Positions 14,444 through 32,510 of a DNA stretch of 64,000 bases are shown one piece after another. The stretch lies in the NCBI RefSeq assembly GCF_057098645.1, contig NZ_CM169472.1, one strand, 5' to 3'. The notes beneath the pieces were generated by a model, which saw only the letters and a program-made list of their open reading frames with translations, ran no database searches and was not told the DNA's origin. Both the position numbers and the translations under genes were made by a program. How positions within the stretch are numbered: position 1 is the stretch's first letter; each line of letters begins with the position of its first letter.

Positions 14444-14508
14444 GACTACACCATTAACTACACCGTTCGGTGCACTGTATGAAACAACGTGGAACAAATA
14501 GACACAAG
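14444..14508 (+). promoter_or_regulatory. Left-arm repeat cluster: GACTACACC, AACTACACC, then GAAACAACGTGGAACAAATAGACACAAG
   Basis: Near-identical arrangement found upstream of int at 32445-32510; candidate integrase arm-type and accessory-factor binding sites. Confidence 0.4.
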
Positions 14509-14572
14509 AAATATACAGGCGGGTAATCTTTCCAGGGGGAAGCGCACCAATTCATGAGGGGCGTTAATGTCG

Positions 14573-14615
14573 ATATGGGGATCCCCATAACGGGGCTACC
14601 GGATTTTTTTTCCGG
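14573..14615. repeat. Two perfect palindromes (TATGGGGATCCCCATA and CCGGATTTTTTTTCCGG) in the island left-end non-coding region
   Basis: Read directly from the sequence. Confidence 0.5.
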
Positions 14616-14874
14616 TTAACATTTAATCAGGCTGGTGGGTTTTACATACCCTTGATCACCGTAATGATGATCCAGATGTGCACCTTTTCCACCAATGGCG
14701 GAAAAGCTCCAACCGTAACGATGATCGCTATGGTTGCCTCGATGGTCTGCGTGGTCATTATGACCATTCAGCCAGTGACCTTAATCAGAATTTTTCGCTA
14801 AAAAATGACGTTGGCCACGTCATCCTGATAGCACAAAATCACGTCGATTTTTAATGAACGGTTAAACCGTCTTT

Positions 14875-14915
14875 TTGTCACGGTGTGTCACTGGTTGTCA
14901 CTCTCCGTCACGATT
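14875..14915. repeat. Four closely spaced GTCAC repeats (TGTCACGG, TGTCACTGG, TGTCACTCT, CGTCACGAT)
   Basis: Direct repeats about 110 bp downstream of the last packaging-operon gene; candidate TerS-binding/cos-pac or operator array. Confidence 0.35.
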
Positions 14916-15025
14916 GAGGTGGTGGTCATTCTGCCCGACCGCGCATTTTTGCGCTATCGGGAATATAAAACAGTTACCGCCGTCAGCTACCCAGCTCAGA
15001 ATTGAGCCGCCTTTTAATCAACAAG

Positions 15026-15307
15026 TTACCGCCGTAACCGCTCCGGCTTCTTCCAGTGGTACGTTATTTTCGCCTTCTCCCGATACAGTTCAACGCGGCG
15101 ATTGTAGGCCAGCATTTCCAGAACGCGGATCCGTATGTCGCGCATATCCGCATCATTAAGCTGGATACCATCACGGCGCATCACCTCAGCAACAACACGC
15201 GCATAATTTTCGGCTGTCACGCTGTCCGGCTGCGTGGTCTGTTCGTCAGCCTGCTGGCTGATTCCAGAGACGCGGCGGATTAATCGCAGTATTTCTGCTT
15301 CTGTCAT
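15026..15307 (-). CDS. Hypothetical protein (93 aa) downstream of terL
   Basis: ORF with GAGG Shine-Dalgarno 8 nt upstream, 14 nt after the terL stop. Confidence 0.55.
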   Translation of the reverse strand: MTEAEILRLIRRVSGISQQADEQTTQPDSVTAENYARVVAEVMRRDGIQLNDADMRDIRIRVLEMLAYNRRVELYREKAKITYHWKKPERLRR

Positions 15308-15320
15308 GCTGCTGACCTCA

Positions 15321-16982
15321 TTACACCCCGCTAAATTCTTCCAGTTTCTGGCGGTGGCTGTCGCTTATATCAAAAGCAAAATCCTCATGCTCTGCCTGGA
15401 ATGTACCAAACGCCATCAGCGCCGCCACGCTCGGGTCTATCTTGTTCGGTGATTTTTTCTTGTTCGGCTTGATATTGGCGTTCGCGTCACTCTGCATCAC
15501 GACGTTACTCATCGACCAGGACAACACCGGATCGCTACGATGCACAATCACCCTGCGGTTAACAAAAACTTCGAACGATTTCGCCGCCGGACTGAATCTG
15601 AGGTAGGTTTGCGGGAACGGCTCCACCTCAAAGCCTGCCCCCTGTAATTGCGTCCTGAGATGCGTGGCGTTCCACGTATCAAAGCCCACCAGCCTGATAT
15701 TAAATTTCTCCGCATCCTGCATGATGTCATCTCTGATCCGGTCGTAATCAATGCAGTCACCTGGCGTTGTGCGTATCCAGCCCGCTTTAGCCCACTGGCG
15801 ATAGACAGCGCGGTTTTTATTGGCGGGGTTCTGTAGCTGGAACTCCGGCAGATAATGACGGGAAACCAGCATGATATTTTTACCGACCGGAAAGGCATAG
15901 CACACGCTGGAAATATCGCTGGTTGATGATAAGTCCAGCCCCGCGTAACACTCCTGCCCGTGTAAATCTTCCTCCGTGAACGTTCCGGCACACTCAGCCC
16001 ATGCGCCGTTACCCATCCACGGGGTAGCCCCCTGGCACCAGATATTAAATCGCTTTGTCATCATCTCCACCCATTGCGACGGAATACCCCGCGCTTTCTG
16101 GATGGTTGAGGCCAGTTTTTCACGATCCACGGAAACATCGATGTTAGGGTTAGCCTTTATCCACATCGCCGGATCATCAACCTCGTTTTCGTCGTCCAGT
16201 TCGTAAATCAGTACAAAAATTGAATCGTTGACCTCTTCGCCGTCCAGGATCTGGCAGCAATAATCATAGTGCTGCTTACAGGCTGAAACGACGTTACTGC
16301 CCGATGTGGTAATGGCAAATAACAGCCCTTCGGGACGTGCGCCCATCCCCAGCTCAAGCGCGGAATAAACGCCGTTATCGGGGTGTAGGTGGTATTCGTC
16401 CACGATGGAAAGGCTTGGGTTTGTGCCCTCGATGGTTGCCGCTTTTGCTGCCAGCGGCTTTAACAGGCTGTTGCTTTTCGGGTGCATCACCTTGTGGGCC
16501 TGAATATTCACCCGCCTGCGTAACGGTCGGGATAAAAGGCACATCTGACGCGCATCATCAAAAACGATCCGCGCCTGGTCACGGCTCACCGCTGCGGTGT
16601 AAATATCCTGCTGCCCGTTCTCCATAATCAGAAACCAGTTAGCCAGAATCGCGGCGGTCGTGGATTTCGCATTTTTGCGCGGCACTTCGATAAAGGCGCT
16701 CGTGTATTTGCGCCGTCCGGTGGCCTTAACCTTAAAGCCGAGGATGCACGCAAAGGCGAACTGCTGCCACGGCTCCAGCTCAATGGGTCTGCCACGCATC
16801 GGTCCTTTTACGTGCGGGCACACCCTGGAAAAGGCAATAAACCGCTCCACAACCTCACGATCGAACGTGTAAAGGGGGCTTTTAAGGTCCGAAAAGTACC
16901 GTTTAACAGCCTGTTTTAACCGTTTACAGGCCGGAATTTTGCCCGTTTTTACGTCTTCTGCGTACTTATTCCAGGCGGTCAA
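15321..16982 (-). CDS. terL: Terminase large subunit (553 aa)
   Basis: Size and position after TerS; ATPase and nuclease regions typical of phage TerL. Confidence 0.85.
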   Translation of the reverse strand: MTAWNKYAEDVKTGKIPACKRLKQAVKRYFSDLKSPLYTFDREVVERFIAFSRVCPHVKGPMRGRPIELEPWQQFAFACILGFKVKATGRRKYTSAFIEVPRKNAKSTTAAILANWFLIMENGQQDIYTAAVSRDQARIVFDDARQMCLLSRPLRRRVNIQAHKVMHPKSNSLLKPLAAKAATIEGTNPSLSIVDEYHLHPDNGVYSALELGMGARPEGLLFAITTSGSNVVSACKQHYDYCCQILDGEEVNDSIFVLIYELDDENEVDDPAMWIKANPNIDVSVDREKLASTIQKARGIPSQWVEMMTKRFNIWCQGATPWMGNGAWAECAGTFTEEDLHGQECYAGLDLSSTSDISSVCYAFPVGKNIMLVSRHYLPEFQLQNPANKNRAVYRQWAKAGWIRTTPGDCIDYDRIRDDIMQDAEKFNIRLVGFDTWNATHLRTQLQGAGFEVEPFPQTYLRFSPAAKSFEVFVNRRVIVHRSDPVLSWSMSNVVMQSDANANIKPNKKKSPNKIDPSVAALMAFGTFQAEHEDFAFDISDSHRQKLEEFSGV

Positions 16983-17322
16983 GCTCGTCCTCTTCTTCTG
17001 TTTCCGGTGGATTTTTACGGCGGCTTATCGGGTCAAAACCGAGCAAGGAGGCCATTTTTATCATCACTCTTTCAGCGTCGGATTTTGCGCTTAATGCGGG
17101 GTTTCTGCTCTCGCCGCCCTGACTGTTAACAATGCTGAACCCGCGCGCCGCAAGGTCTGCAACGGCTTTCCGGTAAATGGAGTAGTTGACGCAATACAGT
17201 TCCAGATTGCTCCAGTCGGCGGGGGTCAGGTCTCCCCGTTCCGCAAGCTGCCGCGATTTTTCCCGCCACTGCTTCACGGCGATATCATCCAGGTAGGCGG
17301 GGGCTTTCGGTGGTCTTGCCAT
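16966..17322 (-). CDS. terS: Terminase small subunit, P27-family-like (118 aa)
   Basis: Small acidic-C-terminus protein overlapping terL start, downstream of an HNH gene. Confidence 0.75.
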   Translation of the reverse strand: MARPPKAPAYLDDIAVKQWREKSRQLAERGDLTPADWSNLELYCVNYSIYRKAVADLAARGFSIVNSQGGESRNPALSAKSDAERVMIKMASLLGFDPISRRKNPPETEEEDELDRLE

Positions 17323-17444
17323 GCTTATTTTTCGTCAGATTATTTTTCAAAAAATTCCCGTGCATAAAAATTTGAGGAGGCGTTCGGTGCCCGGCGGGGT
17401 CGGGTTTGTCCTGAAAACGCCCCCCACCCCGTCATACAGCCTCA

Positions 17445-17669
17445 TCAGCGATTGCGGAAACATTCCATAACCTCGCGGTCACGGTCGGTTAATCGCTTCG
17501 CTGTGATGCGTTCTGCGCGTCCTGACGCTTTATCTTTATGCCCTGTTTCCTGTGTCTTCCATGCGTCACGCTGCCTTATAAGTCCACGGATAAGGCGGTT
17601 TTGTTCCCGCTCATTCATCAGCGTCATACATCCAGTTATTGCGGTTAGCGGCCCGTTCTTCCTCTTCAT
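17445..17669 (-). CDS. Hypothetical basic protein (74 aa) overlapping the 3-prime end of the HNH gene
   Basis: ATG at 17669 preceded by AGGTGG Shine-Dalgarno (5-nt spacer); out of frame with HNH; start uncertain. Confidence 0.4.
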   Translation of the reverse strand: MKRKNGPLTAITGCMTLMNEREQNRLIRGLIRQRDAWKTQETGHKDKASGRAERITAKRLTDRDREVMECFRNR

Positions 17670-18051
17670 GAAATCCACCTGCGGCACGCTTGCTTTTTGT
17701 TGCCGGATCAAGCCATTTCGTTTTCTGGTTATGACACGCCTGGCACAATGGTTGATGGTTCCATTCGGGCCAGAAGAGAACATCATCACCGCCATTAATC
17801 GGGATAATGTGATCCACCACCACGGCGGGCGTATATATCCCCTTCTCAAGGCATCGCACGCATAACGGGTTTTTACTCAGATACATGGCGCGGTATTTGT
17901 CCCACTGTCTGGAGTACCCACGCGCGCGGCGGTGTCCTCGTCTGGCATCCTCTGCACGCCATGCCGCCCGCCTGTGCTCCTCACACTTGCCGGACTTCAC
18001 GCGCCTGTTACAGCCTGGTTCTGTGCATCGTCTTAATGGTTGCCACGGCAT
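17611..18051 (-). CDS. HNH endonuclease (146 aa), packaging-associated
   Basis: Cys/His-rich motifs (CxxC ... HIIPINGGDD ... CQACHNQK); located just upstream of terS as in HNH-dependent cos packaging. Confidence 0.85.
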   Translation of the reverse strand: MPWQPLRRCTEPGCNRRVKSGKCEEHRRAAWRAEDARRGHRRARGYSRQWDKYRAMYLSKNPLCVRCLEKGIYTPAVVVDHIIPINGGDDVLFWPEWNHQPLCQACHNQKTKWLDPATKSKRAAGGFHEEEERAANRNNWMYDADE

Positions 18052-18347
18052 CAGTACACCCCCACATCACGGTAAGCCGTCCAGAGCGCGCCAATCGTCA
18101 TGGGTACGCGCGTTTTTGCGTTATCCGCTACCAGCTGGCGATTCTCGTACAGGTGAGCGATAAACATCATGCAGCCAATCTTTATGGCTGGCGTGAACTC
18201 CAGCCCGTCATCAAAGCGCCTGCCTATATGTATCTGGCACGCCTCAAGCGATGCGGCAATGTATCCGCTGATTAACTGGTCTTCCTCGTCGCCATCGATG
18301 CGGCAATGGAGTTTCACTTCTTCCAGGGTGATAAGTTCTTCTGTCAT
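18051..18347 (-). CDS. Head-tail connector protein, gp6-like (98 aa)
   Basis: Size, position and sequence character of phage gp6-like connector proteins. Confidence 0.65.
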   Translation of the reverse strand: MTEELITLEEVKLHCRIDGDEEDQLISGYIAASLEACQIHIGRRFDDGLEFTPAIKIGCMMFIAHLYENRQLVADNAKTRVPMTIGALWTAYRDVGVY

Positions 18348-18682
18348 TTTTCCGCGCCCTCACGACAAAGAATTTCAAGGCGTGTCCTGGCGGCATCCGG
18401 CAGCGGCTGCCCGATGATATTCAGTACACGCCCCGCCAGCGGCCCCGTACTGACCTTTATCCGGCTGGTGGCGTTGATGTCCTTCCGGTACCGTATCCAG
18501 ATCCTTACGGTACCAATCGCCAGCTCTGCACCCGATGAAATGGCCTCCTTGCTGCTGATCATGTTCACGCTTGCCCAGAGTGTGTGACCGTCCTCCCACG
18601 TTTCGAGTATTTCGCCGGTTATATCCCTGGTCTGTTTCAGGGTCTGAATCGTTACCCTGTCACGCAGTCGCCCTATGTTCAT
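18344..18682 (-). CDS. Head-tail adaptor / head closure protein (112 aa from MNIGRL)
   Basis: MNIGRLRDRVTIQ... typical of head-tail adaptor family; starts 4 nt inside the portal 3-prime end. Confidence 0.65.
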   Translation of the reverse strand: MNIGRLRDRVTIQTLKQTRDITGEILETWEDGHTLWASVNMISSKEAISSGAELAIGTVRIWIRYRKDINATSRIKVSTGPLAGRVLNIIGQPLPDAARTRLEILCREGAEK

Positions 18683-19890
18683 TCCGGTTTTTCTCCCTCG
18701 CTGATTTTTACTTCCTGTTTCCATGCCTGGCTGAACTCATCACCACCATCACGCGGGGACAGCCCTTCACGTTCGCGGGCTTCGTTCGGGCACATAACGC
18801 CGGATTTGATGCCGCGTTCATAGGTGGCAAAGCGTTCGCCAGGTGTGGCCCGTAACAGGTCCGCGCTGTCAAACTCCACCTGATACCGGATACCAGGTAC
18901 AGGCGAGGCCACCAGCAGGGCGTTTTTTATCTGCTGCTCAAAGTTCGCCAGCCACGGGCGCATCGTCATGGTGAGAAATGCGCGGCTTGCCTCGCTGAAA
19001 TTGCTGTAGGTGCTGTTGCTGTATTCCTGCAAAAAAATCGGCGAGACGTTGAACATTCGGGCGATGTCTTCAATGGTGAAGCGACGGGAGGCCAGCCATT
19101 CAGCATCCTGATTACTCATGCCCAGCTGCTGATAGCTCATACCCCCTTCAAGGATGGGCGTTTTTCCGGCGTTTCTGGCCCCTTTGTAGCGTTCCAGTGC
19201 GGCTAATGCCTGTTTGCCCTTCACGCCGTCCAGCCATTCGCCTGACGTGATAACCCCTGCCGCCATCATGCCATCACGCATCACGCTCGCGCCGTGGCGT
19301 TGTTGGGCCAGCCCAAGCCCCAGCGATTCGCGGCAGATGGTTACAGGTGAGCGCCCCATAAAACCGTCATCCGTGGAGTAACGAAGGTGGAGAACCTCCC
19401 ACGGTAAATAGTTGCGGGTGTTTCCGGTGTAGGCGTCAGTGATGCAGTAGCGCCAGTTGTGTTCGCCTGTCTGCTCCACGTTCACCGACTGCGGCGGGTA
19501 AGGATGTAAAGCCACCGGAAAACCATCACGCCCCCACTGAATCACCGCATAAGCATTACCGTTTAACAGGCAGTGGCGGATCATCATTCGCTTAAACTGG
19601 TAGGGAGTCTGCCACGCGTTCGGGCGCTCGTTGAGGATGTGATCGACCGGATGAGAATCAAGCCACTCTCGGGCCTCCTTCCCCTTCTCATTGCGTACCA
19701 GGTACAGGTAACACGGCATGGTAGCCACCGCCTCAGAGATGACCGTGACGGCGTTCATGACGGCGGGCAGTGATTCCGCTGTCCCCGATGATACGTACTC
19801 ACCCGCCCCCGTGTTCGATGTGCCAGCCAGCGCCATAAACTCATCAAGCGTCATGCTGCGCTGCTCTTTTTTTCTTCTGAAAGGCCACAT
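18679..19890 (-). CDS. Portal protein, HK97 family (403 aa)
   Basis: Size and position between prohead protease and connector genes. Confidence 0.8.
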   Translation of the reverse strand: MWPFRRKKEQRSMTLDEFMALAGTSNTGAGEYVSSGTAESLPAVMNAVTVISEAVATMPCYLYLVRNEKGKEAREWLDSHPVDHILNERPNAWQTPYQFKRMMIRHCLLNGNAYAVIQWGRDGFPVALHPYPPQSVNVEQTGEHNWRYCITDAYTGNTRNYLPWEVLHLRYSTDDGFMGRSPVTICRESLGLGLAQQRHGASVMRDGMMAAGVITSGEWLDGVKGKQALAALERYKGARNAGKTPILEGGMSYQQLGMSNQDAEWLASRRFTIEDIARMFNVSPIFLQEYSNSTYSNFSEASRAFLTMTMRPWLANFEQQIKNALLVASPVPGIRYQVEFDSADLLRATPGERFATYERGIKSGVMCPNEAREREGLSPRDGGDEFSQAWKQEVKISEGEKPE

Positions 19891-19891
19891 A

Positions 19892-20464
19892 TCACACCCC
19901 CGCTAAATCCGCCCACCAGCGGCGATTATCCGCACGCGGCATTTTTTCGGGGTGCTGCTCATACAGGGAACGGCGGGCCAGCTCCACGCCGGAATCGGGG
20001 TAAGCCGGTACCGATGTAACGGTAATTTCGTACAGTTCCGCCACCAGCACGGTGCGCACGCATGGATCTGTTGTGGTATCCCATACATCCTTACGGGAGC
20101 GAAAGCCAAAGCTCATCCCCGAGATGTCCCCACGCTTAACCAGTTCGATAACGTCGCGCCCTGTACTGGTATCCGGTGGGGTCAGTTCAAAGCGTAACCC
20201 TGTTTCGTCCTCTTCCAGTTTCAGCGTGCCGGAACGGGTGCGCCCCAGTAACATGCTGTGGTCATGCTCATACAGGCCGCGAACGTCATTACCCGCCGCA
20301 AGCCATTCAGTAAACGCTCCCCGCTGGAATTTTTCGTAAAACTCACCCCATAGCAGATCAGAAAGGTTATCCCAGCGAACAACGTAGCCTGTAAGCGTGT
20401 TGCTGGCGCTGGTGGTGATTTCCGATGACCGGATTTCCATACTCTTCATAATTTTTTCACCCAT
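19892..20464 (-). CDS. Prohead maturation protease, HK97 family (190 aa)
   Basis: Size and position between major capsid and portal genes. Confidence 0.8.
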   Translation of the reverse strand: MGEKIMKSMEIRSSEITTSASNTLTGYVVRWDNLSDLLWGEFYEKFQRGAFTEWLAAGNDVRGLYEHDHSMLLGRTRSGTLKLEEDETGLRFELTPPDTSTGRDVIELVKRGDISGMSFGFRSRKDVWDTTTDPCVRTVLVAELYEITVTSVPAYPDSGVELARRSLYEQHPEKMPRADNRRWWADLAGV

Positions 20465-20503
20465 AAAACACTAAAGGGGCTTTTAAGCCCCTTCTGTATG
20501 CTG

Positions 20504-21661
20504 TTAATCGTCGTCTTCCGGCAGTTCCAGAATCTTGATCGCGTTCGAATCCACCACGCCACCGCCTAAATATTTTTGCGTGAAAATTTTGATGAATCCT
20601 GGTTCTGTCAGGTTGTCCGGTCTGGTGCGAACACCTGTTTCGTGATCAACAATGTAGTAACCGCGTTTGAAGTCACCCAGGGCAATAACGTTATCAGGCA
20701 TAAACTCCAGATATTCGACCGGAAGGCCCAGCAACGTATCAGGATCACCCGCCTGTAAACGGTCGCGCCAGATATAATCACCGTTCGCGTTCTTCACCTT
20801 CTGAAGTTTTGCCGCCGTCGTGGAGTTAACCACCCAGACCGCGTTTTTGCGGTATTTTTTACGTAATGCAAATTTCAGGTCGATCAGCGGGTCCGCAGAT
20901 GTCCACGCCAGAGATTCGGAAGGTTTAATTACCTGCAACGTACCAAAATCACGCTCTTTGTCGTTCTTCTCTGCACGGGGTACGGATAAAAAACCTTTTG
21001 CTTTTTTGTCACCGTCGCCCACAACCAGATCGCTTTCTTCGGTTTCCGTGAAGGTGTCGCCAATCTCACCCGTCAGCCATGAAAGGATGTCCACATCGGA
21101 AAAATCCACGATTTCCTGTGTGGTGCGCGGGTACGCATAGACCGGATACAGCTTGATGCTCACCTCGTTAATCTGCGGGGTGCTGGTCTGTTCGCGTGCC
21201 TTACCCTCTTCACCGTGGTTAACGGTCGCACCGCCAGCGGAAACAAGCTGCTTAAACTCGTTGCTGCTGATTTTCTTCACGGTACAGATGCGGCGCATGG
21301 TGGATTCATCCGCCAGCATTCGCATGATTTCGGTGTTCAGTTCAGGGATAACGGTATAACCACCATCAGCGGGAACGCCTGTACTTAATGCGCGGGTTTC
21401 ACCTGTCAGAATGTAGTTGCGGAGTTCTGCGGGGTCAGTGGTCTGACTGCTTTTACCTGGCTTGCTGCGCTCTTCGTCTGCAATGGCTTCAAGGCGGGAA
21501 ATGTCTTTATCGAGGGATTCAGCTTTAGCGCGTAATTCGTCAAATTTTGCGCCCTCTGCATCGTTAAGGCTGCGGTTTTCTTTTTCCGCGTTCTCCAGCA
21601 TGTCGCGCATCTGATTTTTAATGGCGGTTTTCTGCTGGCGTAATTCGATTATTCTCGGCAT
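20504..21661 (-). CDS. Major capsid protein, HK97 fold, with N-terminal coiled-coil scaffolding (delta) domain
   Basis: Start taken at MPRIIELRQQ (ATG 21661) because the upstream codons of the 21706 ORF form a terminator hairpin; coiled-coil N-terminus then MCP-like body. Confidence 0.85.
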   Translation of the reverse strand: MPRIIELRQQKTAIKNQMRDMLENAEKENRSLNDAEGAKFDELRAKAESLDKDISRLEAIADEERSKPGKSSQTTDPAELRNYILTGETRALSTGVPADGGYTVIPELNTEIMRMLADESTMRRICTVKKISSNEFKQLVSAGGATVNHGEEGKAREQTSTPQINEVSIKLYPVYAYPRTTQEIVDFSDVDILSWLTGEIGDTFTETEESDLVVGDGDKKAKGFLSVPRAEKNDKERDFGTLQVIKPSESLAWTSADPLIDLKFALRKKYRKNAVWVVNSTTAAKLQKVKNANGDYIWRDRLQAGDPDTLLGLPVEYLEFMPDNVIALGDFKRGYYIVDHETGVRTRPDNLTEPGFIKIFTQKYLGGGVVDSNAIKILELPEDDD

Positions 21662-21699
21662 AAAAAAAAGTCCTGGGGTTAAGTAAGGAACTCCAGGAC
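21662..21699 (-). terminator. Intrinsic terminator immediately upstream of the capsid start codon
   Basis: Minus-strand RNA: GUCCUGG(AGUU)...(AACC)CCAGGAC stem followed by U8 and then AUG. Confidence 0.55.
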
Positions 21700-21751
21700 G
21701 CGGCAAACACTCAACCGTTTTTCATAAGGAAATCAGTAATCGCACCGATCG

Positions 21752-21801: not shown

Positions 21802-21876
21802 TGGCCCCAGCGTCCTGGCACCACGGGCGAGAATAATCATGATTCAGTTCGGGTAAAATATGCCGATCCACTCAGT

Positions 21877-21906
21877 GAACAACGTGGAACAACCACGAAC
21901 AAATAA
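21877..21906 (+). promoter_or_regulatory. Third copy of the AACAACGTGGAACAA-N4-GAACAA motif, in the capsid-operon leader
   Basis: Same motif as at both island ends (14481-14508, 32483-32510). Confidence 0.35.
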
Positions 21907-21920
21907 TTTACAAAACATGA

Positions 21921-21943
21921 CAAAAAGCCGGATTGCTCCGGCT
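21921..21943 (-). terminator. Intrinsic terminator after the PerC-like gene
   Basis: Minus-strand AGCCGGA-GCAA-TCCGGCU hairpin followed by UUUUU. Confidence 0.5.
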
Positions 21944-21949
21944 GTGTGA

Positions 21950-22222: not shown

Positions 22223-22232
22223 CGTCACCCCC

Positions 22233-22891: not shown

Positions 22892-22903
22892 TTCTCGCAA
22901 CCT

Positions 22904-25370: not shown

Positions 25371-25386
25371 ACTGTTGTTCCTTCTG

Positions 25387-26952: not shown

Positions 26953-27137
26953 TGACGTCTCCACTGGTTTAAACACGGCAATGGAGACTGTGGTGAAAAG
27001 AGTTAATTCCCGGAGTGACTGGCAGGATGCCAATCAATGATCGGAAGCATGCCAAATCGTGATCGATTGTGATGCCAAACTGTGATCGGAGATGGATGCC
27101 AAATCATGATCGATTCGAATGCCAAACTGCGATCGAT

Positions 27138-27434: not shown

Positions 27435-27439
27435 TATTT

Positions 27440-27673
27440 TTATTCTCCGGTGTGCTGTTCTTTATATCTGTCGTGCAATAGATCTATTTTTTGCAGTTCC
27501 ATTATTACAGGCTCAAGTAGCGTTATTAATGCCGTGGCAATTCTTGATTTTTGTTTGTCGCGTTCATTATCTCCAAGCGTGTCAAGCCATATGCGCAATA
27601 TTTCCAGCATGTTTTCACTGTGAGAAAGTGCAAGAAATGCGCGGTCTATTGTTTCAAGGTAAATATCACGCAT
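27440..27673 (-). CDS. Hypothetical protein (77 aa)
   Basis: Coupled ORF (5-bp gap to next gene, 1-nt gap after previous stop). Confidence 0.5.
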   Translation of the reverse strand: MRDIYLETIDRAFLALSHSENMLEILRIWLDTLGDNERDKQKSRIATALITLLEPVIMELQKIDLLHDRYKEQHTGE

Positions 27674-27674
27674 A

Positions 27675-27896
27675 TTAATCCCCGTCCGTCGTTTTTCTTA
27701 AAACAACTTCTGTCACGAAATCAGCATAGTTAGCGGCAATATCAAGAATATTTAGCCCTGTATCCCTGTGCTCATCAGTGCAAAGAAAGAAAAAAGCCAC
27801 CAGCATAATTTCAGATATTGACGAAAGCGCATCAGCCGCATCATCAGGAACGCCGGAAAATTCCTGTTTCAGGGAATTAAAACGATCATCACGCAT
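27675..27896 (-). CDS. Hypothetical protein (73 aa)
   Basis: First ORF of the three-gene set upstream of rep. Confidence 0.45.
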   Translation of the reverse strand: MRDDRFNSLKQEFSGVPDDAADALSSISEIMLVAFFFLCTDEHRDTGLNILDIAANYADFVTEVVLRKTTDGD

Positions 27897-27929
27897 AACC
27901 CCGTTACTTTATTCGTACCCCTTATAATG

Positions 27930-28129
27930 GGGTGTTAGCCAGCCAGACCCGGCATGATTACTGCCCCCAGTCGTCCATGATCCGGGGGGTGATGTCACCG
28001 GGTCTGGTGGGGCGCTGGTAACCGCTAATAGGGGTCAGGTCAGGCACTTTTGCCGGGACCGTCTGTAACGTGGATGCCGGTACCTGCTCCCCGTGGTTAT
28101 CTGGTTAACCCATATACAAGGGAGACAGA
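27930..28129 (+). ncRNA. Candidate IS110-type bridge (guide) RNA in the 5-prime non-coding end
   Basis: Structured GC-rich non-coding flank upstream of the recombinase, where IS110-group elements encode their bridge RNA; not verified by folding. Confidence 0.25.
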
Positions 28130-29326
28130 ATGACCGAATCCAGCGATTACGAATCCGTCCAGGTCTTTATCGGCGTTGATGTCGGTAAAGATACGCATCA
28201 CGCTGTAGCCATTAATCGTTCAGGTAAACGCCTGTTCGATAAAGCATTACCCAACGACGAAAACAAACTCAGGTCGCTAATATCTGACCTGAAACAACAT
28301 GGTCAGATACTGCTGGTTGTTGATCAGCCAGCTACCATCGGTGCGTTACCTGTCGCCGTTGCCCGCTCAGAAGGAGTCCTTGTCGGATACCTCCCTGGAC
28401 TGGCCATGCGCCGCATAGCCGACTTACACGCCGGTGAAGCTAAAACTGATGCTCGTGACGCTGCCATCATTGCCGAAGCTGCCCGTACCCTGCCTCACGC
28501 GCTACGCACGCTGAAACTGGCTGACGAGCAAATCGCCGAACTCTCCATGCTCTGCGGCTTCGATGATGATCTTGCCGCACAGACAACGCAGGCCAGCAAC
28601 CGTATCCGCGGCCTTCTGACCCAGATACATCCGGCACTGGAGCGCGTTCTCGGTCCGAGACTTGATCACCCGGCGGTACTCGATCTTCTCCAGCGATATC
28701 CCTCACCAGAAAAACTCGCTTCGCTGGGTGAGAAGAAGCTGGCAGCCCAGCTCTGCAAACTTGCGCCTCGTCTGGGTAAACGCCTTGCAGCAGACATAGC
28801 TCAGGCACTGGCCGAACAAACCGTCGTCGTTCCCGGCACGAATGCCGCTGCCGTAGTACTGCCACGTCTGGCACTCCAGCTCATCACGCTGCGTAAGCAA
28901 AGAGACGAGGTGGTGCTTGAGGTAGAACAGCGAGTTCTTGCTCACCCTCTTTACCCGGTCCTGACCAGTATGCCCGGAGTCGGTGTCAGGACCGCAGCCA
29001 GACTCCTCACCGAGGTCGCCTGCCGCGCCTTCGCCTCTGCCGCACATCTCGCTGCTTATGCTGGCCTTGCGCCGGTAACTCGGCGATCCGGCTCGTCAAT
29101 ACGCGGTGAGCATCCCTCGCGACGGGGTAATAAAGCTCTCAAACGGGCGTTGTTCCTGTCGGCCTTCGCCGCGCTCAGGGATCCGCTCTCCAGGGCTTAC
29201 TACACCCGCAAAATGAGTCAGGGAAAACGACACAATCAGGCGCTTATCGCCCTGGCGAGACGACGCTGCGACGTTCTGTTCGCCATGATGCGCGACGGGA
29301 CTTTTTATACCCCGCAGGCGTCATAA
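28130..29326 (+). CDS. IS110-family transposase/recombinase (398 aa)
   Basis: N-terminal IGVDVGKDTHHAVAIN (RuvC-like DEDD) motif and C-terminal serine-containing domain. Confidence 0.85.
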   Translation: MTESSDYESVQVFIGVDVGKDTHHAVAINRSGKRLFDKALPNDENKLRSLISDLKQHGQILLVVDQPATIGALPVAVARSEGVLVGYLPGLAMRRIADLHAGEAKTDARDAAIIAEAARTLPHALRTLKLADEQIAELSMLCGFDDDLAAQTTQASNRIRGLLTQIHPALERVLGPRLDHPAVLDLLQRYPSPEKLASLGEKKLAAQLCKLAPRLGKRLAADIAQALAEQTVVVPGTNAAAVVLPRLALQLITLRKQRDEVVLEVEQRVLAHPLYPVLTSMPGVGVRTAARLLTEVACRAFASAAHLAAYAGLAPVTRRSGSSIRGEHPSRRGNKALKRALFLSAFAALRDPLSRAYYTRKMSQGKRHNQALIALARRRCDVLFAMMRDGTFYTPQAS

Positions 29327-29339
29327 CATGCTTGACAAC

Positions 29340-29561
29340 TTAATAGGGGCACCCCCCATTTTCACAATCAGCAATAAGAATATTTTTAGCGTCATTCAGC
29401 GACCGCGTGGCGGTGTATCGGATACATTCCAGGGCGAACTGTGTCCGGTCTTTCTGTTCTTCTCCCTGCGCAAGCTCTGCAGTGCATTCAATATCGATAA
29501 GCGCGTGCATCAGCGTAGTGAGCGCGGCGGCTGCTGCGTCCGGTGTGGTTTTATTGCACAT
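29340..29561 (-). CDS. Hypothetical Cys-containing protein (73 aa, MCNKTTPDAAAAALTTLMHALIDIECTAEL...)
   Basis: AGGAGG Shine-Dalgarno 8 nt upstream; ATG overlaps the end of the preceding gene by 11 bp; stop is 14 nt from the IS110 transposase stop. Confidence 0.5.
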   Translation of the reverse strand: MCNKTTPDAAAAALTTLMHALIDIECTAELAQGEEQKDRTQFALECIRYTATRSLNDAKNILIADCENGGCPY

Positions 29562-29751
29562 GGCACACCTCCTGACGAATACGGGCGGCGAATACAGCAA
29601 CACAACCGGACGGGCAACGGCTACGCGCTTCGCGTTCCGTCCAGGCGGTTACGTGGATGATTTGAGATTCTCCGGCACTCAGTGCCAGAAAACGCCACAC
29701 AAAGGCCGTTTGTGTGTGTACAAGGTGTGGTATATGATTTACAGCAACCAT
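29551..29751 (-). CDS. Hypothetical Cys/His-rich protein (66 aa, MVAVNHIPHLVHTQTAFVWRF...CPSGC...CHVQ)
   Basis: AGGAG Shine-Dalgarno 5 nt upstream of ATG; first gene of the leftward small-gene operon. Confidence 0.55.
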   Translation of the reverse strand: MVAVNHIPHLVHTQTAFVWRFLALSAGESQIIHVTAWTEREARSRCPSGCVAVFAARIRQEVCHVQ

Positions 29752-29780
29752 AACGGCTCCTAGTTTACGTTGTTGGTTAG

Positions 29781-29825
29781 AAGCCCTGCGAGTGGTAACG
29801 ACACTTGCGGGGCTTTGTCTTTTCA
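29781..29825 (+). terminator. Strong hairpin with U-rich tail, best formed on plus-strand RNA
   Basis: 14-bp stem AAGCCCUGCGAGUG/CACUUGCGGGGCUU with two G-U pairs on the plus strand (C-A mismatches on the minus strand), followed by UGUCUUUUC. Confidence 0.45.
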
Positions 29826-29845
29826 TCGATTACCTTGATAAAGGT

Positions 29846-29924
29846 GTCAGCCACTATATTAGTAACGGGTGTCAGCCACGTCAATAGTGTTTTTCCGTTT
29901 TCTTGTGTGTATACTGTCAGCCAC
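29846..29924 (+). promoter_or_regulatory. Three direct repeats TGTCAGCCAC (29846, 29870, 29915) overlapping the promoter of the RHH gene
   Basis: Exact 10-bp repeats; the third overlaps a TATACT -10-like hexamer about 30 bp upstream of the RHH start. Confidence 0.5.
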
Positions 29925-29945
29925 CTAATAACGAGGAAATCAGAT

Positions 29946-30125
29946 ATGGCAACAAAAGCAGTTAATGCAAAATCCAAAAAGCTTGAGGCTCGAGTACCAC
30001 ACGCAATAGCTGATGCTGTAGAAAATTTAAAGGAAGATGGCGAAAGTACAGGGCAATTTATCGTTTCGGCACTTGAAGGCGAGATCAAACGCCGCCAGCG
30101 CCGCAAGGCCAAAGAATCAGAATAA
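29946..30125 (+). CDS. Ribbon-helix-helix (CopG/Arc-like) DNA-binding protein (59 aa)
   Basis: MATKAVNAKSKKLEARVPHAIADAVENLKEDGESTGQFIVSALEGEIKRRQ: beta-strand then two helices pattern; plus strand, divergent from the small-gene operon. Confidence 0.6.
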   Translation: MATKAVNAKSKKLEARVPHAIADAVENLKEDGESTGQFIVSALEGEIKRRQRRKAKESE

Positions 30126-30167
30126 TCACTATCAGCGCCGTGGTGTGAGGTATTACGGCGCATTGCT

Positions 30168-30356
30168 ATGCAGGACAACACAATGACCGATAAAGAATTG
30201 ACCAAAACATTATCACCGGCACGGAAAAGACGGCGCAGAAAGATAGAGCATGAATCAGAAAGATTCGCGCCATGTGCTTTTGCCCTTGAGCAATTCCTTA
30301 AAGAATACAGGGAAAAGCGCTCATTGCAGGTATGGCAACGAACTGAACCAGACTGA
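30168..30356 (+). CDS. Hypothetical highly basic protein (57-62 aa, contains RKRRRRK)
   Basis: ORF directly downstream of the RHH gene and upstream of an intrinsic terminator; weak ribosome-binding site. Confidence 0.4.
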   Translation: MQDNTMTDKELTKTLSPARKRRRRKIEHESERFAPCAFALEQFLKEYREKRSLQVWQRTEPD

Positions 30357-30451
30357 TTGCATTGCCCACCAGCCTGATAGCGGCTATCATCCCCGTGCTT
30401 ATGTTTGGGATCACACACACAAACGGCGCAGCGGGTTATCTGTTCAGAAAG

Positions 30452-30479
30452 GCGGCTCCATTTCGGGGCCGCTTTTTTT
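30452..30479 (+). terminator. Intrinsic terminator of the plus-strand RHH cassette
   Basis: GCGGCUCC-AUUUC-GGGGCCGC hairpin followed by UUUUUUU. Confidence 0.6.
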
Positions 30480-30625
30480 ATGCCTGAAAAACCCCAATTT
30501 TGTGGTTTTCCAGTCTCACCAGGGCGAACGAATCCCCGCCCACGTTCTGGCGTATATTCAATCTTCATGGTTATAGCTCTGTGTTCAGATGATTGATGTG
30601 TGGCGGCTGTGTGCCGCCAGCGTGA

Positions 30626-30814
30626 TTAATGAACTGCCTTGCAGCTATCCTTCCAGGCCAGAACCTCGGATAAAGACCAGCCAACGGAACGACCGCCAAG
30701 TTTACGACGTGATGGGAATTGTCCGGCCTTTTCCAGGCGGTAGCGACACGTACGGCTAAGGCCGGTTAGTTTTTCGCATTCTTTTTCACGTATAAACCGA
30801 TCAGTGCTTAACAC
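30626..30814 (-). CDS. alpA: AlpA-family phage regulatory protein (62 aa)
   Basis: LTGLSRTCRYRLEKAGQFPSRRKLGGRSVGWSLSEVLAW matches the AlpA/Xis-like HTH family pattern. Confidence 0.8.
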   Translation of the reverse strand: MLSTDRFIREKECEKLTGLSRTCRYRLEKAGQFPSRRKLGGRSVGWSLSEVLAWKDSCKAVH

Positions 30815-31188
30815 TATTGCCCCCTTTCGTTTCTTAAAGAGTTATTTCGTGTTCTATTGCGTTGAGATGTGTCTGATTGTGTCAGGATGATTCAGAGTTG
30901 GCAAATGTTGAGGCCGTATGGTTTACAGAAAGAGGAATAATCAGGATAAAATCATTTAAATTCATGTTAATACAAAGACATAAAATATTGTTTCATGCCT
31001 TTTTTCTCGCTATTTAAAGAGTGATTCGCTAGTGTATAAAAAACCAGTGACACATTAAAAATCAGCTACTTATAAATCTGTACACTTTTTCGCCTCTTGT
31101 TCGTAGTTGTTCCGCATTGTTGCTCATTGTTGCACGTTGTATCTGTTCGCATATCCAGTATGCGCATACTGAAAAAATACGAAAAAAA

Positions 31189-32406
31189 TTATTTTCTTCT
31201 GGCTACTGGTAGCGTGGTTACGTTTTCATGTGTTCCCGCCAGTATCCCTAACCGCTCCATCCACATATCCAGCGCATTGCGTTTAGCATCCAGATAACGG
31301 GAATGATTATAAACTCGCTGCATTCCTGGCATCTGGTGGCCTGTAAGCTGCTCCACGACATGCGGATCAACGCCTAAATCGTTCAGCATGGTTGTAAAGG
31401 TGCGCCGGATGTCATGCAGTGACCAGTGAGGATGATTAAGCCTCCTGTGCGCTAATCTTCCATACTGCGATACGCTGGCCTCCTGTTTCACTTCCCCCAG
31501 CAATAAGCCCGTGTGCCTGTTCTGCTCCACCAGCTGCGTGACGAACGGCAGGATCGCTTCCGGTATGGGCCGGAATATTGCGACCTTCGTTTTGCTGTGC
31601 TCCTTCGGAACGGTCCATAGCATTTCCGTAAAATCCCACTCCCCGATCTCCGATAGCCTCAGTTCTACCGTCCTGGCTCCGAAGACAATCAGGAGGCGGA
31701 TTAACGCGACGTAGTAAGGGGAAAATATTTTTTTGTCCAGTGCCTGCAATAATTCGCCAAGTTCTTTGTTACTTAAGACACGTTCGCTTATATCCGGTTT
31801 TTTCCCAACGTCCGCCACGTTCAGATCGTCCAGAACGTTGCTGATTGCATAGCGCCGCCTACGGCAGAACTTAAGCGCCTGTTTGCACGCCTGTAGCACG
31901 AATCCGGCAGTAACAGGCGTTCGCTTTGCCACCTGGTCAAAACAGGCCAGCCAGTGCCGTAGCTCGCATTTATCCAGCGGCATAGCACCAATCTGCTGTA
32001 TTACGTGATTATTAAGTCGCCTTTTCAGGGCGATATAATCCACGCGCTTTTCCTTTACGTAATACTCAAGCCAGTAGGTGAGCGCATCGCCAACCGTTAC
32101 GGGCTTTAACGCTTCCTGTACGGTGTAATTCATCTCATGACGTGGATTTTTCCCCTCAGCCAGCCATGTGCGACACTGTGCGGCTTTTTCCCTAGCTGCT
32201 TTCAGGCTCAGATCAGGATAACTTCCCAGCTTAATGCGTTCGGGTCGTGTCTCCCTTCCCGTTCCGGCCCTGTATGTGAAATACCAGGTCAATTTCCCTG
32301 ATGTTAAATATTTCACGCTCAGGTTTCCGCCATCACTATAAAACGTGTTTTTCTCCGCTGGCTTACCATGAAGTTTCCTTAGCAAGGTATCGCTCAGTTT
32401 GTTCAT
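31189..32406 (-). CDS. int: Tyrosine integrase, P4-like (about 405 aa)
   Basis: Arm-binding N-terminal domain plus catalytic R..HxxR..Y signature (HDIRRTF...RYLD); start at ATG 32406 (GTG 32418 also possible). Confidence 0.9.
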   Translation of the reverse strand: MNKLSDTLLRKLHGKPAEKNTFYSDGGNLSVKYLTSGKLTWYFTYRAGTGRETRPERIKLGSYPDLSLKAAREKAAQCRTWLAEGKNPRHEMNYTVQEALKPVTVGDALTYWLEYYVKEKRVDYIALKRRLNNHVIQQIGAMPLDKCELRHWLACFDQVAKRTPVTAGFVLQACKQALKFCRRRRYAISNVLDDLNVADVGKKPDISERVLSNKELGELLQALDKKIFSPYYVALIRLLIVFGARTVELRLSEIGEWDFTEMLWTVPKEHSKTKVAIFRPIPEAILPFVTQLVEQNRHTGLLLGEVKQEASVSQYGRLAHRRLNHPHWSLHDIRRTFTTMLNDLGVDPHVVEQLTGHQMPGMQRVYNHSRYLDAKRNALDMWMERLGILAGTHENVTTLPVARRK

Positions 32407-32444
32407 TGCTCTGCTCACGTTTTACCCCCTCTTTACGAAAAAGT

Positions 32445-32510
32445 GACTACACCAGTGACTACACCGATCGTTGCACAAAGGGCTACAACGTGAAACAAGC
32501 TGGAACAAGG
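32445..32510 (+). promoter_or_regulatory. Right-arm repeat cluster: GACTACACC x2 then ACAACGTGAAACAAGCTGGAACAAGG
   Basis: Between the int start and the chromosomal junction; mirrors the left-arm cluster. Confidence 0.4.

What the first reader, a model, noticed from the sequence alone, without database searches (positions are those of the whole stretch)
14444..32510. Conserved motif cluster at both island ends plus a third copy in the capsid-operon leader
Both ends carry tandem (G/A)ACTACACC repeats followed about 20 bp later by ACAACGTG(G)AAACAA...GAACAA (14444-14508 and 32445-32510). A third copy of the second motif (GAACAACGTGGAACAACCACGAACAAATAA) lies at 21877-21906 in front of the capsid operon. 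The tandem 9-mers look like integrase arm-type sites. The 15-mer present at attL, attR and a promoter region suggests a single factor (AlpA-like) that both directs excision and activates packaging genes.
Basis: partly seen in the sequence, partly recalled or inferred. Interest (0 to 1): 0.6.

Follow-up and report, generated by a model that had tools for sequence, protein, structure and literature searches.

The report
Integrase and AlpA sites in a PICI
The repeated motifs are real and are most likely the integrase and AlpA (excisionase/activator) binding sites of a capsid-forming phage satellite, giving a testable candidate AlpA operator, although this copy is a rearranged chimera that probably cannot excise.

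Summary
The element (about 14358-32602) is an EcCIEDL933-like capsid-forming PICI, broken by IS21- and IS110-family insertions.

There are two kinds of repeat:
- **Tandem ACTACACC pairs.** They occur only on the two att arms. In relatives they change when Int changes. They are probably Int arm-type sites.
- **(G/A/C)AACAA hexamers phased at 10 bp.**

Phased triples occur 6 times in the window against 0.01 expected, all inside the island. In 63 related loci every such cluster falls in one of these same positions.

The hexamer shares its GTTC core and its three-sites-at-10-bp layout with the mapped TorI excisionase sites of prophage KplE1. It persists where Int is unrelated but AlpA is about 60% identical. 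The best reading is that AlpA binds these arrays to direct excision, autoactivate, and switch on capsid genes. This is inferred, not shown.

One correction: the two ends are not a cognate pair. The left end is a phoQ-site attL and the right end a tqsA-site attR, with different cores.

This is a new instance of a known kind. Interest is moderate.

The parts
14358..14367 (.). Left junction and core of the phoQ|roxA-type att site (AAATATGTCC). phoQ stops at 14359.
   Evidence: K-12 homology ends at 14364. The same core is repeated at both ends of the phoQ-site island L002.
14387..14399 (-). IHF-consensus match (AATCAATGACTTG) between the core and the arm sites of the P' arm. Candidate bending site.
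   Evidence: Regex WATCAANNNNTTR; conserved in L001 and L002. Consensus match only.
14444..14464 (+). Tandem pair GACTACACC-att-AACTACACC. Probable Int arm-type sites on the P' arm.
   Evidence: Invariant in the attL alignment. Changes together with Int.
14482..14507 (+). Phased array AAACAA-n4-GAACAA-n4-ACACAA. Probable AlpA/RDF sites on the P' arm.
15026..21661 (-). Capsid/packaging operon: capsid, protease, portal, head closure, connector, HNH, TerS, TerL and a small ORF.
   Evidence: ORFs and RefSeq annotation of the relatives L001 and L002.
21670..21699 (-). Terminator-like hairpin GUCCUGG...CCAGGAC. It is followed by U8 (21662-21669), which abuts the capsid AUG at 21661. An AGGA (possible RBS) lies in the 3' stem.
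   Evidence: Fold gives -17.9 kcal/mol, z = -2.1. The stem is kept with a different loop in L053. The function is inferred.
21830..21857 (-). Weak sigma70-like promoter candidate TTTACC-n16-TATTCT. The array lies about 20-45 bp upstream of its -35 hexamer.
   Evidence: Read by eye from alignment A4. It is below the threshold of the consensus scan, which found no promoter here. An equivalent TTTACA-n16-TATGTT is present in L006, L009 and L010.
21877..21914 (+). Capsid-operon array GAACAA x3 (21877-21902; reads TTGTTC x3 on the operon's strand) plus the invariant box ATAATTTACAAA (21903-21914).
   Evidence: It is the only conserved block in leaders that are otherwise unrelated (L006, L009, L010, L053).
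21926..21943 (-). Intrinsic terminator after the PerC-like gene. It separates the upstream module from the capsid-operon control region.
30626..30814 (-). alpA (62 aa). Phage_AlpA winged-helix protein, candidate binder of the phased arrays.
   Evidence: PF05930 at E 6e-17 and phrog_2790 'excisionase and transcriptional regulator'. The AF2 model (pLDDT 87) is closest to excisionases: 8c3t with TM 0.84, then RdfS, Pukovnik Xis and TorI.
30850..30895 (-). Degenerate proximal phased array (ACACAA-type units at a 10-bp period), 35-80 bp upstream of the alpA start codon.
   Evidence: Read (window, L005, L006, EcCICFT073). Weak and not tested statistically.
31097..31149 (-). Distal alpA-upstream array. 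It has 5 phased units (+ strand TTGTTC, TTGTTC, TTGTTG, TTGTTG, TTGTAT) plus one out-of-phase TGTTCG. Its orientation is opposite to that of the other three arrays.
   Evidence: Found at the same place in all window-type relatives and in EcCICFT073, which has 6-7 units.
31189..32418 (-). int (409 aa). Tyrosine recombinase with an N-terminal arm-binding domain.
   Evidence: PF13356 at E 1e-17 and PF00589 at E 7.5e-16.
32445..32465 (+). Tandem pair GACTACACC-agt-GACTACACC. Probable Int arm-type sites on the P arm, 27 bp upstream of the int start codon.
   Evidence: Invariant in alignment A2.
32483..32508 (+). Phased array CTACAA-n4-AAACAA-n4-GAACAA. Probable AlpA/RDF sites on the P arm.
32555..32580 (+). 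Weaker core-proximal phased array GAAACA-n4-GAAACA-n4-AAAACA.
   Evidence: Equivalent CGAACAC x2 in L007-L009 and GAACAA/GAAACA/GAACAC in L006.
32594..32602 (.). Right junction and core of the tqsA-type att site (TGCTGTTAT). The 3' part of tqsA follows.
   Evidence: K-12 tqsA homology starts at 32594. The core is repeated at both ends of the tqsA-site island L001.

Best explanation
The region is a capsid-forming phage-inducible chromosomal island (cf-PICI) of the EcCIEDL933 type. The motif clusters are its protein-binding sites.

**Arm module.** Each arm of the attachment site carries a module of about 65 bp.
- It has two tandem ACTACACC sites. The N-terminal arm-binding domain of the P4-like integrase is inferred to bind them.
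- About 20 bp away are three (G/A/C)AACAA sites on the same face of the helix (10-bp period). The island's AlpA is inferred to bind them head-to-tail. AlpA is a small winged-helix protein with an excisionase fold.
- AlpA on both arms would bend the DNA and tip Int toward excision.

**The same array elsewhere.**
- *Upstream of alpA.* A longer array of 5-7 units lies about 285-335 bp upstream of the alpA start codon. It is the likely site of AlpA's published positive autoregulation.
- *Before the capsid operon.* In capsid-forming islands only, three units lie about 20-45 bp upstream of the -35 hexamer of a weak promoter-like sequence in front of the capsid/packaging operon. There AlpA would act as an upstream activator.

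One helper-induced protein would therefore couple excision, its own amplification and capsid production.

**Shown versus inferred.** Shown here: the positions of the sites, their non-randomness and conservation, and how each motif tracks Int or AlpA. Inferred: which protein binds which motif, and the effect on transcription.

**This copy.** It is a chimera of two islands. Its attL comes from the phoQ|roxA site and its attR from the tqsA site. It is also interrupted by two IS elements, so it is probably unable to excise normally.
For: **Identity of the element.**
- The gene content matches RefSeq-annotated relatives.
- The described cf-PICI family is documented in 10.1101/2022.09.08.507074.

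**Non-randomness.**
- Searches give the motif counts against shuffles.
- Phased triples occur 6 times against 0.01 expected, all inside the island.

**Positional conservation.**
- In 63 loci (1.03 Mb), 118 of 120 phased clusters fall in the main arm arrays, alpA-upstream or the cf capsid leader. One more (L050) is a core-proximal array on an att arm, and one (L029) was not placed.
- The clusters are conserved blocks in alignments whose other columns drift.
- In L006, L009 and L010 the capsid leader is otherwise unrelated, yet the array and the adjacent box are kept.
- In L015 and L025 the alpA-upstream array contains an exact 25-nt copy of the leader array.

**Assignment of the tandem pair to Int.**
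- Int has PF13356.
- L008 and L010 have near-identical AlpA DNA-binding regions, but their Ints differ and their pairs differ (ACTACACC against TGACCACACA). The change occurs on both arms.

**Assignment of the phased array to AlpA.**
- Where Int is only 26% identical (L070) or 54% identical (L068), AlpA is still about 60% identical. A TGTTTC or TTGTTCG array still sits next to the Int pair.
- AlpA is PF05930. Its model is closest to excisionases.
- The mapped TorI RDF sites in KplE1 attL are GTTCG/GATCG, three at a 10-bp period. That is the same core and layout (PMC2951348; sequence check).

**Function, from the literature.**
- A near-identical AlpA (4 differences) in EcCICFT073 activates its own promoter and downstream genes. 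It triggers excision when overexpressed (PMC6092414). That island has 6-7 units upstream of alpA.
- An alpA mutation abolishes EcCIEDL933 induction.
- alpA overexpression is used to drive EcCIEDL933 particle production (10.1101/2025.02.11.637232).

**Chimera.**
Against: - No binding or expression data exist for these sites, and the papers I could search report no AlpA operator.
- In EcCICFT073, AlpA did not change a Pint-lacZ fusion, although the P-arm array lies in that region. Presence of an array is therefore not sufficient for a transcriptional effect.
- The leader array is oriented opposite to the alpA-upstream array relative to the gene downstream.
- The classical PICIs L005, L007, L008 and EcCICFT073 have no array before their packaging module. 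AlpA dependence of packaging genes therefore does not require one.
- AlpA variants are too similar (58-100% identity) to give a clean protein-motif covariation test.
- The Int-pair relation is not monotonic. L068 Int (54% identity) keeps ACTACACC, while L010 Int (66%) does not.
- The distant cf-PICIs L051 and L055 have a different phased motif in the leader. It was not found elsewhere in those loci. The leader factor there could be something other than the RDF.
- The capsid promoter is a by-eye candidate below the scan threshold.
Confidence: 0.65

Rival explanations
1. The assignments are the other way round. The phased GAACAA arrays would be the Int arm-type sites, like the three tandem P' sites of lambda. 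The ACTACACC pairs would bind another factor.
For: - Three direct repeats at a period of about 10 bp on an att arm are also typical of lambda P'1-P'3 (own knowledge).
- Both motifs lie on both arms.
Against: - The arrays persist next to an Int that is only 26% identical (L070), whereas the tandem pair changes.
- The arrays also occur at two sites with no recombination role: alpA-upstream and the capsid leader.
- The ACTACACC-to-TGACCACACA switch tracks Int, not AlpA.
- The core GTTC matches mapped RDF (TorI) sites. It does not match the IntS arm sites, whose conserved motif is TAAA.
Confidence: 0.1
2. The capsid-leader array is not an AlpA site. It would be a recognition element belonging to the packaging module, such as a terminase/cos-proximal site, a module-specific regulator site, or a conserved recombination linker between modules. 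On this reading it only resembles the att-arm motif.
For: - The array travels with the cf packaging module across islands that have different int/alpA variants and different upstream genes.
- In L051 and L055 the box TTTGTAAATTAT is kept, but the phased units differ and are not seen elsewhere in those loci.
- Classical PICIs lack the array.
Against: - The leader array is the same hexamer at the same period as the arm and alpA arrays.
- In L015 and L025 it is a 25-nt exact copy of part of the alpA-upstream array.
- The arm and alpA-upstream arrays are present in classical PICIs that have a different TerS.
- In HK97-like arrangements cos is expected next to HNH/terS, not upstream of the capsid gene (own knowledge).
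- No phage has a similar leader.
Confidence: 0.15
3. The arrays bind a host protein that recognises direct repeats with a period of about 10 bp, such as an OmpR-family response regulator, rather than an island protein.
For: Direct hexamer repeats at 10-11 bp are typical of OmpR/PhoB-family sites (own knowledge).
Against: - There are no phased triples in the 45.8 kb of chromosome flanking the island.
- The array is kept in a 68% GC genome next to an AlpA homologue.
- The motif differs from the PhoP, PhoB, ArcA and CpxR boxes as I recall them, which have an 11-bp period and other hexamers.
Confidence: 0.04
4. The similarity of the two ends is a historical duplication or gene conversion of one arm onto the other, with no present function.
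For: The two arm modules are about 78% identical over about 59 bp.
Against: - Within the modules the motif positions are invariant across islands while the spacers drift.
- The spacing between the pair and the array differs between arms in L007-L009, yet both motifs are kept.
- Both arms switch together to a new pair motif in L010.
Confidence: 0.04

Closest known systems
KplE1 (CPS-53) attL: IntS arm-type sites plus TorI RDF sites overlapping PintS (Panis et al. 2010, PMC2951348)
   Same: - The int gene abuts the att arm, so the int promoter region contains both Int arm sites and RDF sites.
- The RDF block I3-I5 is three sites at a 10-bp period with core GTTCG/GATCG. The units here are TTGTTC(G/C/A) at a 10-bp period.
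- In both cases the RDF is a small winged-helix protein that is expressed separately from int.
   Different: - TorI is only marginally similar to PF05930 (E 0.16). Its TM score to the AlpA model is 0.64.
- TorI sites are on one arm and repress PintS. Here strong arrays lie on both arms, plus two promoter-region arrays.
- Published AlpA does not regulate Pint in EcCICFT073.
AlpA of the E. coli PICIs EcCICFT073 and EcCIEDL933 (Fillol-Salom 2018, PMC6092414; Alqurainy et al., 10.1101/2022.09.08.507074)
   Same: - Same element family. The window's AlpA differs from EcCICFT073 AlpA at 4 of 62 residues.
- EcCICFT073 carries the same arm modules and a 6-7 unit array upstream of alpA.
- The published phenotypes match the array positions: autoactivation, excision on overexpression, and requirement for cf-PICI induction.
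   Different: - Those papers, as far as I could search them, define no AlpA binding site and no capsid-operon promoter.
- This copy is chimeric and IS-disrupted.
Dual-function RDF/regulators: RdfS of ICEMlSymR7A (PMC11963761); P2 Cox, 186 Apl and P4 Vis (own knowledge)
   Same: - One small wHTH protein binds the att site and also promoters, coupling excision to gene expression.
- It oligomerises on repeated sites.
- RdfS is the second-best structural match to the AlpA model.
   Different: - RdfS shows no consensus motif (abstract). Here there is a clear hexamer.
- Cox and Apl mainly repress lysogenic promoters. Here the target would be a structural-gene operon of a satellite.
Lambda attP (P1, P2, X1-X1.5-X2, F, H sites, P'1-P'3; own knowledge)
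   Same: Heterobivalent Int with arm sites on both arms, phased RDF sites, and IHF-like bending sites between the arms and the core.
   Different: - Lambda Xis sites are on the P arm only.
- The motifs and spacing are unrelated.
- Lambda Xis is not known to activate late or structural genes.
Pseudomonas aeruginosa AlpA antiterminator (PMC7969949, PMC9371919)
   Same: - Same protein name and a predicted winged-helix protein.
- Its target operons have an intrinsic terminator immediately upstream of the first gene. The window-type capsid leader has the same feature.
   Different: - The ABE is GGGACG-n5-GGTA between -35 and -10. Here the sites are GAACAA arrays upstream of the candidate -35.
- The PDB sequence search with the window's AlpA (E up to 1) listed only 8c3t.
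- L006-type leaders have no such terminator.

Membership tests
Capsid-forming PICI (EcCIEDL933-like) | int, alpA and a replication gene at one end, in PICI order | tested here: met
   int 31189-32418, alpA 30626-30814 and RepA-family helicase 23092-24492.
Capsid-forming PICI (EcCIEDL933-like) | Own complete head and packaging module (capsid, protease, portal, connectors, HNH, TerS, TerL), with no tail or lysis genes | tested here: met
   ORFs 15026-21661 and RefSeq names in the relatives L001 and L002, which are 97-99% identical. No tail or lysis ORFs lie between the att junctions.
Capsid-forming PICI (EcCIEDL933-like) | Size about 10-18 kb at a dedicated att site | tested here: inconclusive
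   The element is 18.2 kb including about 4.3 kb of IS-associated DNA. The ends belong to two different PICI sites, phoQ|roxA and tqsA, so the element is a recombinant and not a single integration.
Capsid-forming PICI (EcCIEDL933-like) | Helper-phage induction, with transfer in its own capsids on helper tails | not testable with these tools
   Experimental property. It is published for EcCIEDL933 only.
Arm-type sites of a heterobivalent tyrosine integrase | Integrase has an N-terminal arm-DNA-binding domain | tested here: met
   PF13356 Arm-DNA-bind_3, residues 8-95, E 1.1e-17.
Arm-type sites of a heterobivalent tyrosine integrase | Repeated sites on both arms, distinct from and distant from the core | tested here: met
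   The pairs lie 77 bp (P') and 129 bp (P) from the cores. The sequence is unrelated to either core.
Arm-type sites of a heterobivalent tyrosine integrase | Site sequence changes with the integrase | tested here: met
   ACTACACC changes to TGACCACACA (L010, L029, L050) and to TTGGTCCAAA (L070), on both arms where both arms are available. These are few independent events, and the relation to overall Int identity is not monotonic.
Arm-type sites of a heterobivalent tyrosine integrase | Bound by the Int N-terminal domain | not testable with these tools
   Needs EMSA or footprinting.
wHTH recombination directionality factor (Xis/TorI/AlpA-type) site array | Element encodes a small wHTH protein with an excisionase fold | tested here: met
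   PF05930 at E 6e-17. The AF2 model has pLDDT 87. The best PDB matches are the GIsul2 excisionase 8c3t (TM 0.84/0.91), RdfS, Pukovnik Xis and TorI.
wHTH recombination directionality factor (Xis/TorI/AlpA-type) site array | Direct repeats in helical phase within the att arm(s) | tested here: met
   Three units at a 10-bp period on each arm, plus a weaker core-proximal array. The layout and GTTC core match the TorI sites I3-I5.
wHTH recombination directionality factor (Xis/TorI/AlpA-type) site array | Protein required for excision and binds these sites | not testable with these tools
   Excision on alpA overexpression is published for the near-identical EcCICFT073 protein. Binding has not been reported in the papers found.
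AlpA-type processive antiterminator (P. aeruginosa AlpA) | Binding element embedded between -35 and -10 of the target promoter | tested here: not met
   The arrays lie upstream of the only promoter-like candidate, and the motif is unrelated to GGGACG-n5-GGTA. The promoter itself is unmapped, so the result is weak.
AlpA-type processive antiterminator (P. aeruginosa AlpA) | Intrinsic terminator between the promoter and the first gene | tested here: inconclusive
   A hairpin plus U8 abuts the capsid AUG in the window and in L053. It is absent from L006-, L009- and L010-type leaders.

The most novel reading that the evidence does not exclude
PICI AlpA may not be a simple upstream activator. It could load onto RNA polymerase at the phased array, as P. 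aeruginosa AlpA and lambda Q do, and make the polymerase resistant to termination. The hairpin-plus-U8 terminator that abuts the capsid AUG would then be read through only when the helper phage has induced AlpA. One excisionase-fold protein would act as recombination directionality factor, autoactivator and antiterminator for the satellite's capsid genes.
Probability: 0.1. Interest if true: 0.7.

Novelty: new member of a known kind. Interest (0 to 1): 0.42.

Why it matters
AlpA is the published master switch of Gram-negative PICIs and cf-PICIs. I found no operator for it, and no promoter for the cf-PICI capsid operon, in the papers I could search.

- The phased GAACAA/TTGTTC(G) array is a concrete, mutable candidate operator at four defined places.
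- It makes the question of how AlpA couples excision, self-amplification and capsid production directly testable by EMSA, reporter fusions and arm-site mutants.
- It offers a sequence signature for finding AlpA-controlled genes and for delimiting PICI att sites in genomes.

The concept itself is well precedented: an RDF that also regulates transcription, and Int arm sites beside RDF sites. A specialist would find this useful rather than surprising.

Tried and rejected
- **Rfam.** A scan of 14300-32700 at E up to 0.1 found nothing.
- **Phage collection.** A blastn search with the capsid leader found no match. No phage late-promoter homologue could be used.
- **Consensus promoter scan.** It found no sigma70 promoter in the leader and nothing above chance around int/alpA. 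The promoter I list is a by-eye, sub-threshold candidate.
- **Word-indexed AlpA homologue search.** It returned only close relatives, at least 59% identical. A clean AlpA-motif covariation test was therefore not possible. I ran no further search on it.
- **Distant cf-PICIs.**
  - L054 (Pasteurellaceae-like, at a tRNA) has other repeats (TTAGTTATAC) and a truncated far end. It was not comparable.
  - L051 and L055 have a different leader motif that I could not find near their int/xis genes.
- **tRNA target.** None is present in the window.
- **TerS/cos reading and host response-regulator reading.** Both were considered and judged unlikely (see the rival explanations).
- **Source genome.** No complete E. 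coli genome out of 5,426 carries this configuration. The source may be an IS-rich Shigella-like genome, which is a guess.

Full report
**1. The observation**

- RACTACACC occurs four times in 64 kb, as two tandem pairs at 14444/14456 and 32445/32457. The expectation is 0.49, and no shuffle reaches 4.
The expectation is 0.05.

Reading the sequence shows that the second motif is a hexamer, (G/A/C)AACAA, repeated with a 10-bp period.
- There are three units at 14482-14507, three at 21877-21902 and three at 32483-32508.
- There are five or six units at 31097-31149 in the opposite orientation.

Three phased AACAA units with at most 1 mismatch occur 6 times in the window against 0.01 in 200 dinucleotide shuffles. 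None lies in the 45.8 kb outside the element.

**2. What the element is**

*Gene content.*
- All on the minus strand, the region encodes int, an AlpA-family protein, a RepA-family helicase, SSB and a PerC-like protein. A complete HK97-type head and packaging operon follows: capsid, protease, portal, head closure, connector, HNH, TerS and TerL.
- There are no tail or lysis genes.
- RefSeq relatives 97-99% identical carry the same annotation.
- This is the EcCIEDL933-type capsid-forming PICI described by Alqurainy et al..
- IS21-family (about 24516-27154) and IS110-family (within 27903-29558) elements interrupt it.

*The two ends are not a cognate pair.*
- Related islands sit either between phoQ and roxA (core AAATATGTCC) or inside tqsA (core TGCTGTTAT).
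- In the window the left flank is purB-phoP-phoQ, and K-12 homology ends at 14364.
- The right flank is the 3' part of tqsA followed by pntB and pntA, and K-12 homology starts at 32594.
- Neither roxA nor the 5' part of tqsA is in the window.
- Inside the element, 14300-22654 is 98.2% identical to a phoQ-site island.
- By contrast, 18632-24515 and 29559-32700 are more than 99% identical to a tqsA-site island.
- The simplest reading is homologous recombination between two inverted island copies about 0.5 Mb apart. That would invert the segment between them. The inversion itself is inferred, because the reciprocal junction is not in the window.
- No complete E. coli genome of 5,426 has this configuration.

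**3. Layout of the att site**

Joining the two arms gives an attP of about 300 bp, in this order:
- int start (32418)
- tandem pair (32445-32465)
- 17 bp
- array (32483-32508)
- a conserved TATAATCA block
- weak array (32555-32580)
- core
- IHF-consensus site (14387-14399)
- tandem pair (14444-14464)
- 17 bp
- array (14482-14507)

In alignments of eight islands from four integration sites, the ACTACACC pairs and the AACAA units are invariant blocks, while neighbouring columns drift.

**4. Comparison with relatives**

I compared 63 loci (1.03 Mb), drawn from E. coli genomes, IMG/VR and metagenome assemblies.
- Of the 120 phased-triple clusters, 118 lie in the main arm arrays, upstream of alpA, or in front of a cf-type capsid operon. 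One further cluster (L050) is a core-proximal array on an att arm, and one (L029) was not placed.
- cf-PICIs at yifB, clpS/cspD and thiM/rcnR have leaders that are otherwise unrelated to the window's. They keep the three units and the adjacent box TTTGTAAATTAT.
- The classical PICIs L005, L007, L008 and EcCICFT073 keep the arm and alpA-upstream arrays. They have none before their packaging genes.
- In L015 and L025 the alpA-upstream array contains an exact 25-nt copy of the leader array.

**5. Which protein binds which motif**

*The tandem pair follows Int.*
- Int has an Arm-DNA-bind_3 domain.
- L008 and L010 have almost the same AlpA DNA-binding region, but their Ints differ. Their pairs also differ, ACTACACC against TGACCACACA, and the change is on both arms.
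- L070 has an Int only 26% identical, and its pair is TTGGTCCAAA.

*The phased array follows AlpA.*
- AlpA stays at 58% identity or more in all these loci. The array persists next to the diverged Ints of L068 (TTGCTCG, TTATTCG, TTGTTCG, TGGTTCG) and L070 (CTGTTTC x2).
- AlpA is PF05930. Its AF2 model (pLDDT 87) is closest to solved excisionases: GIsul2 Xis with TM 0.84, then RdfS, Pukovnik Xis and TorI.
- The TorI sites of KplE1 attL, mapped by experiment, have cores GTTCG/GATCG/GTCCG. Sites I3-I5 stand at a 10-bp period (PMC2951348). I checked this on the K-12 sequence.
- The PICI unit TTGTTC(G/C/A) has the same core and the same layout.

**6. Link to published function**

- EcCICFT073 AlpA differs from the window's at 4 residues.
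- It activates its own promoter and downstream PICI genes, and it triggers excision and replication when overexpressed. It does not change Pint-lacZ (PMC6092414).
- That island has 6-7 phased units about 280-340 bp upstream of alpA.
- An alpA mutation abolishes EcCIEDL933 induction and transfer.
- alpA overexpression is used to drive EcCIEDL933 reproduction for particle purification.
- None of the papers I could search reports an AlpA operator.

**7. The capsid leader**

- The array follows a clear terminator after the PerC-like gene.
- It lies about 20-45 bp upstream of the -35 hexamer of a weak promoter-like sequence, TTTACC-n16-TATTCT at 21857-21830. L006-type leaders have TTTACA-n16-TATGTT in the same position.
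- That position fits an upstream (class I-like) activator. The promoter is a by-eye candidate below the scan threshold.
- The leader RNA is unusually structured (z = -4.1). It ends in a hairpin plus U8 that abuts the capsid AUG. L053 keeps the stem with a different loop.

**8. Verdict**

It rests on comparative inference and on published phenotypes, not on binding data.
- The main caveats are listed under the evidence against the best explanation.
- In kind, this is a new instance of the well-known pairing of integrase arm sites with arrays for a dual-function recombination directionality factor. Its value is a concrete candidate operator for PICI AlpA.

Noticed in passing
window 12228-14367 and 32594-36510: The left flank is phoP-phoQ (K-12 about 1.19 Mb). 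The right flank is 3' tqsA-pntB-pntA (K-12 about 1.67 Mb). The island therefore sits at the junction of an apparent inversion of about 0.5 Mb spanning the terminus region, probably made by recombination between two inverted PICI copies. No complete E. coli genome of 5,426 shares the configuration.
   Followed up: partly
window 24516-27154 and 27903-29558: An IS21-family element (istA 25387-27033, istB within 24615-25400) is inserted about 20 bp upstream of the RepA helicase start. An IS110-family transposase (28130-29326) lies in a segment that replaces about 430 bp of the regulatory-side genes. This island copy is likely defective.
   Followed up: partly
window 21662-21801 (- strand): The capsid leader RNA is strongly structured (226 nt, z = -4.1). 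It has a long hairpin UUUUCCCGCCUG...CAGGCGGGAAAA (21801-21752) and a terminator-like hairpin plus U8 that touches the capsid AUG and contains a possible AGGA ribosome-binding site. There is no Rfam family. It could be an attenuator or antitermination target.
   Followed up: partly
window 31156-31171: A perfect 16-bp palindrome CAGTATGCGCATACTG lies between the int stop and the distal alpA array. It is conserved in window-type islands (L002, L005) but absent from L006 and EcCICFT073. It could be a site for a dimeric regulator, for example the unknown helper-phage inducer of alpA.
   Followed up: no
L051 535-559 and L055 9791-9815: Distant cf-PICIs (capsid 66-70% identical) keep the box TTTGTAAATTAT before the capsid operon. 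It is followed by three 10-bp-phased units of a different sequence (TTGTAC/CCGTAC, GTTTAC, TCTTAC/GCTTAC). L055 lies next to a P2-like prophage ogr gene and has an unrelated Int and an HTH_17-like Xis.
   Followed up: partly
L054 8215-8450: A Pasteurellaceae-like cf-PICI has AGTGTTCACC iterons in direct and inverted copies just downstream of its primase gene. This is probably the replication origin. It is unrelated to the motif studied here.
   Followed up: no
L066 (EcCICFT073) 13200-13300 and L005 13860-13930: Classical PICIs have two consecutive intrinsic terminators after the PerC-like gene and no GAACAA array before their capsid-remodelling and packaging genes. Their packaging module must therefore be controlled differently from that of cf-PICIs.
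   Followed up: no
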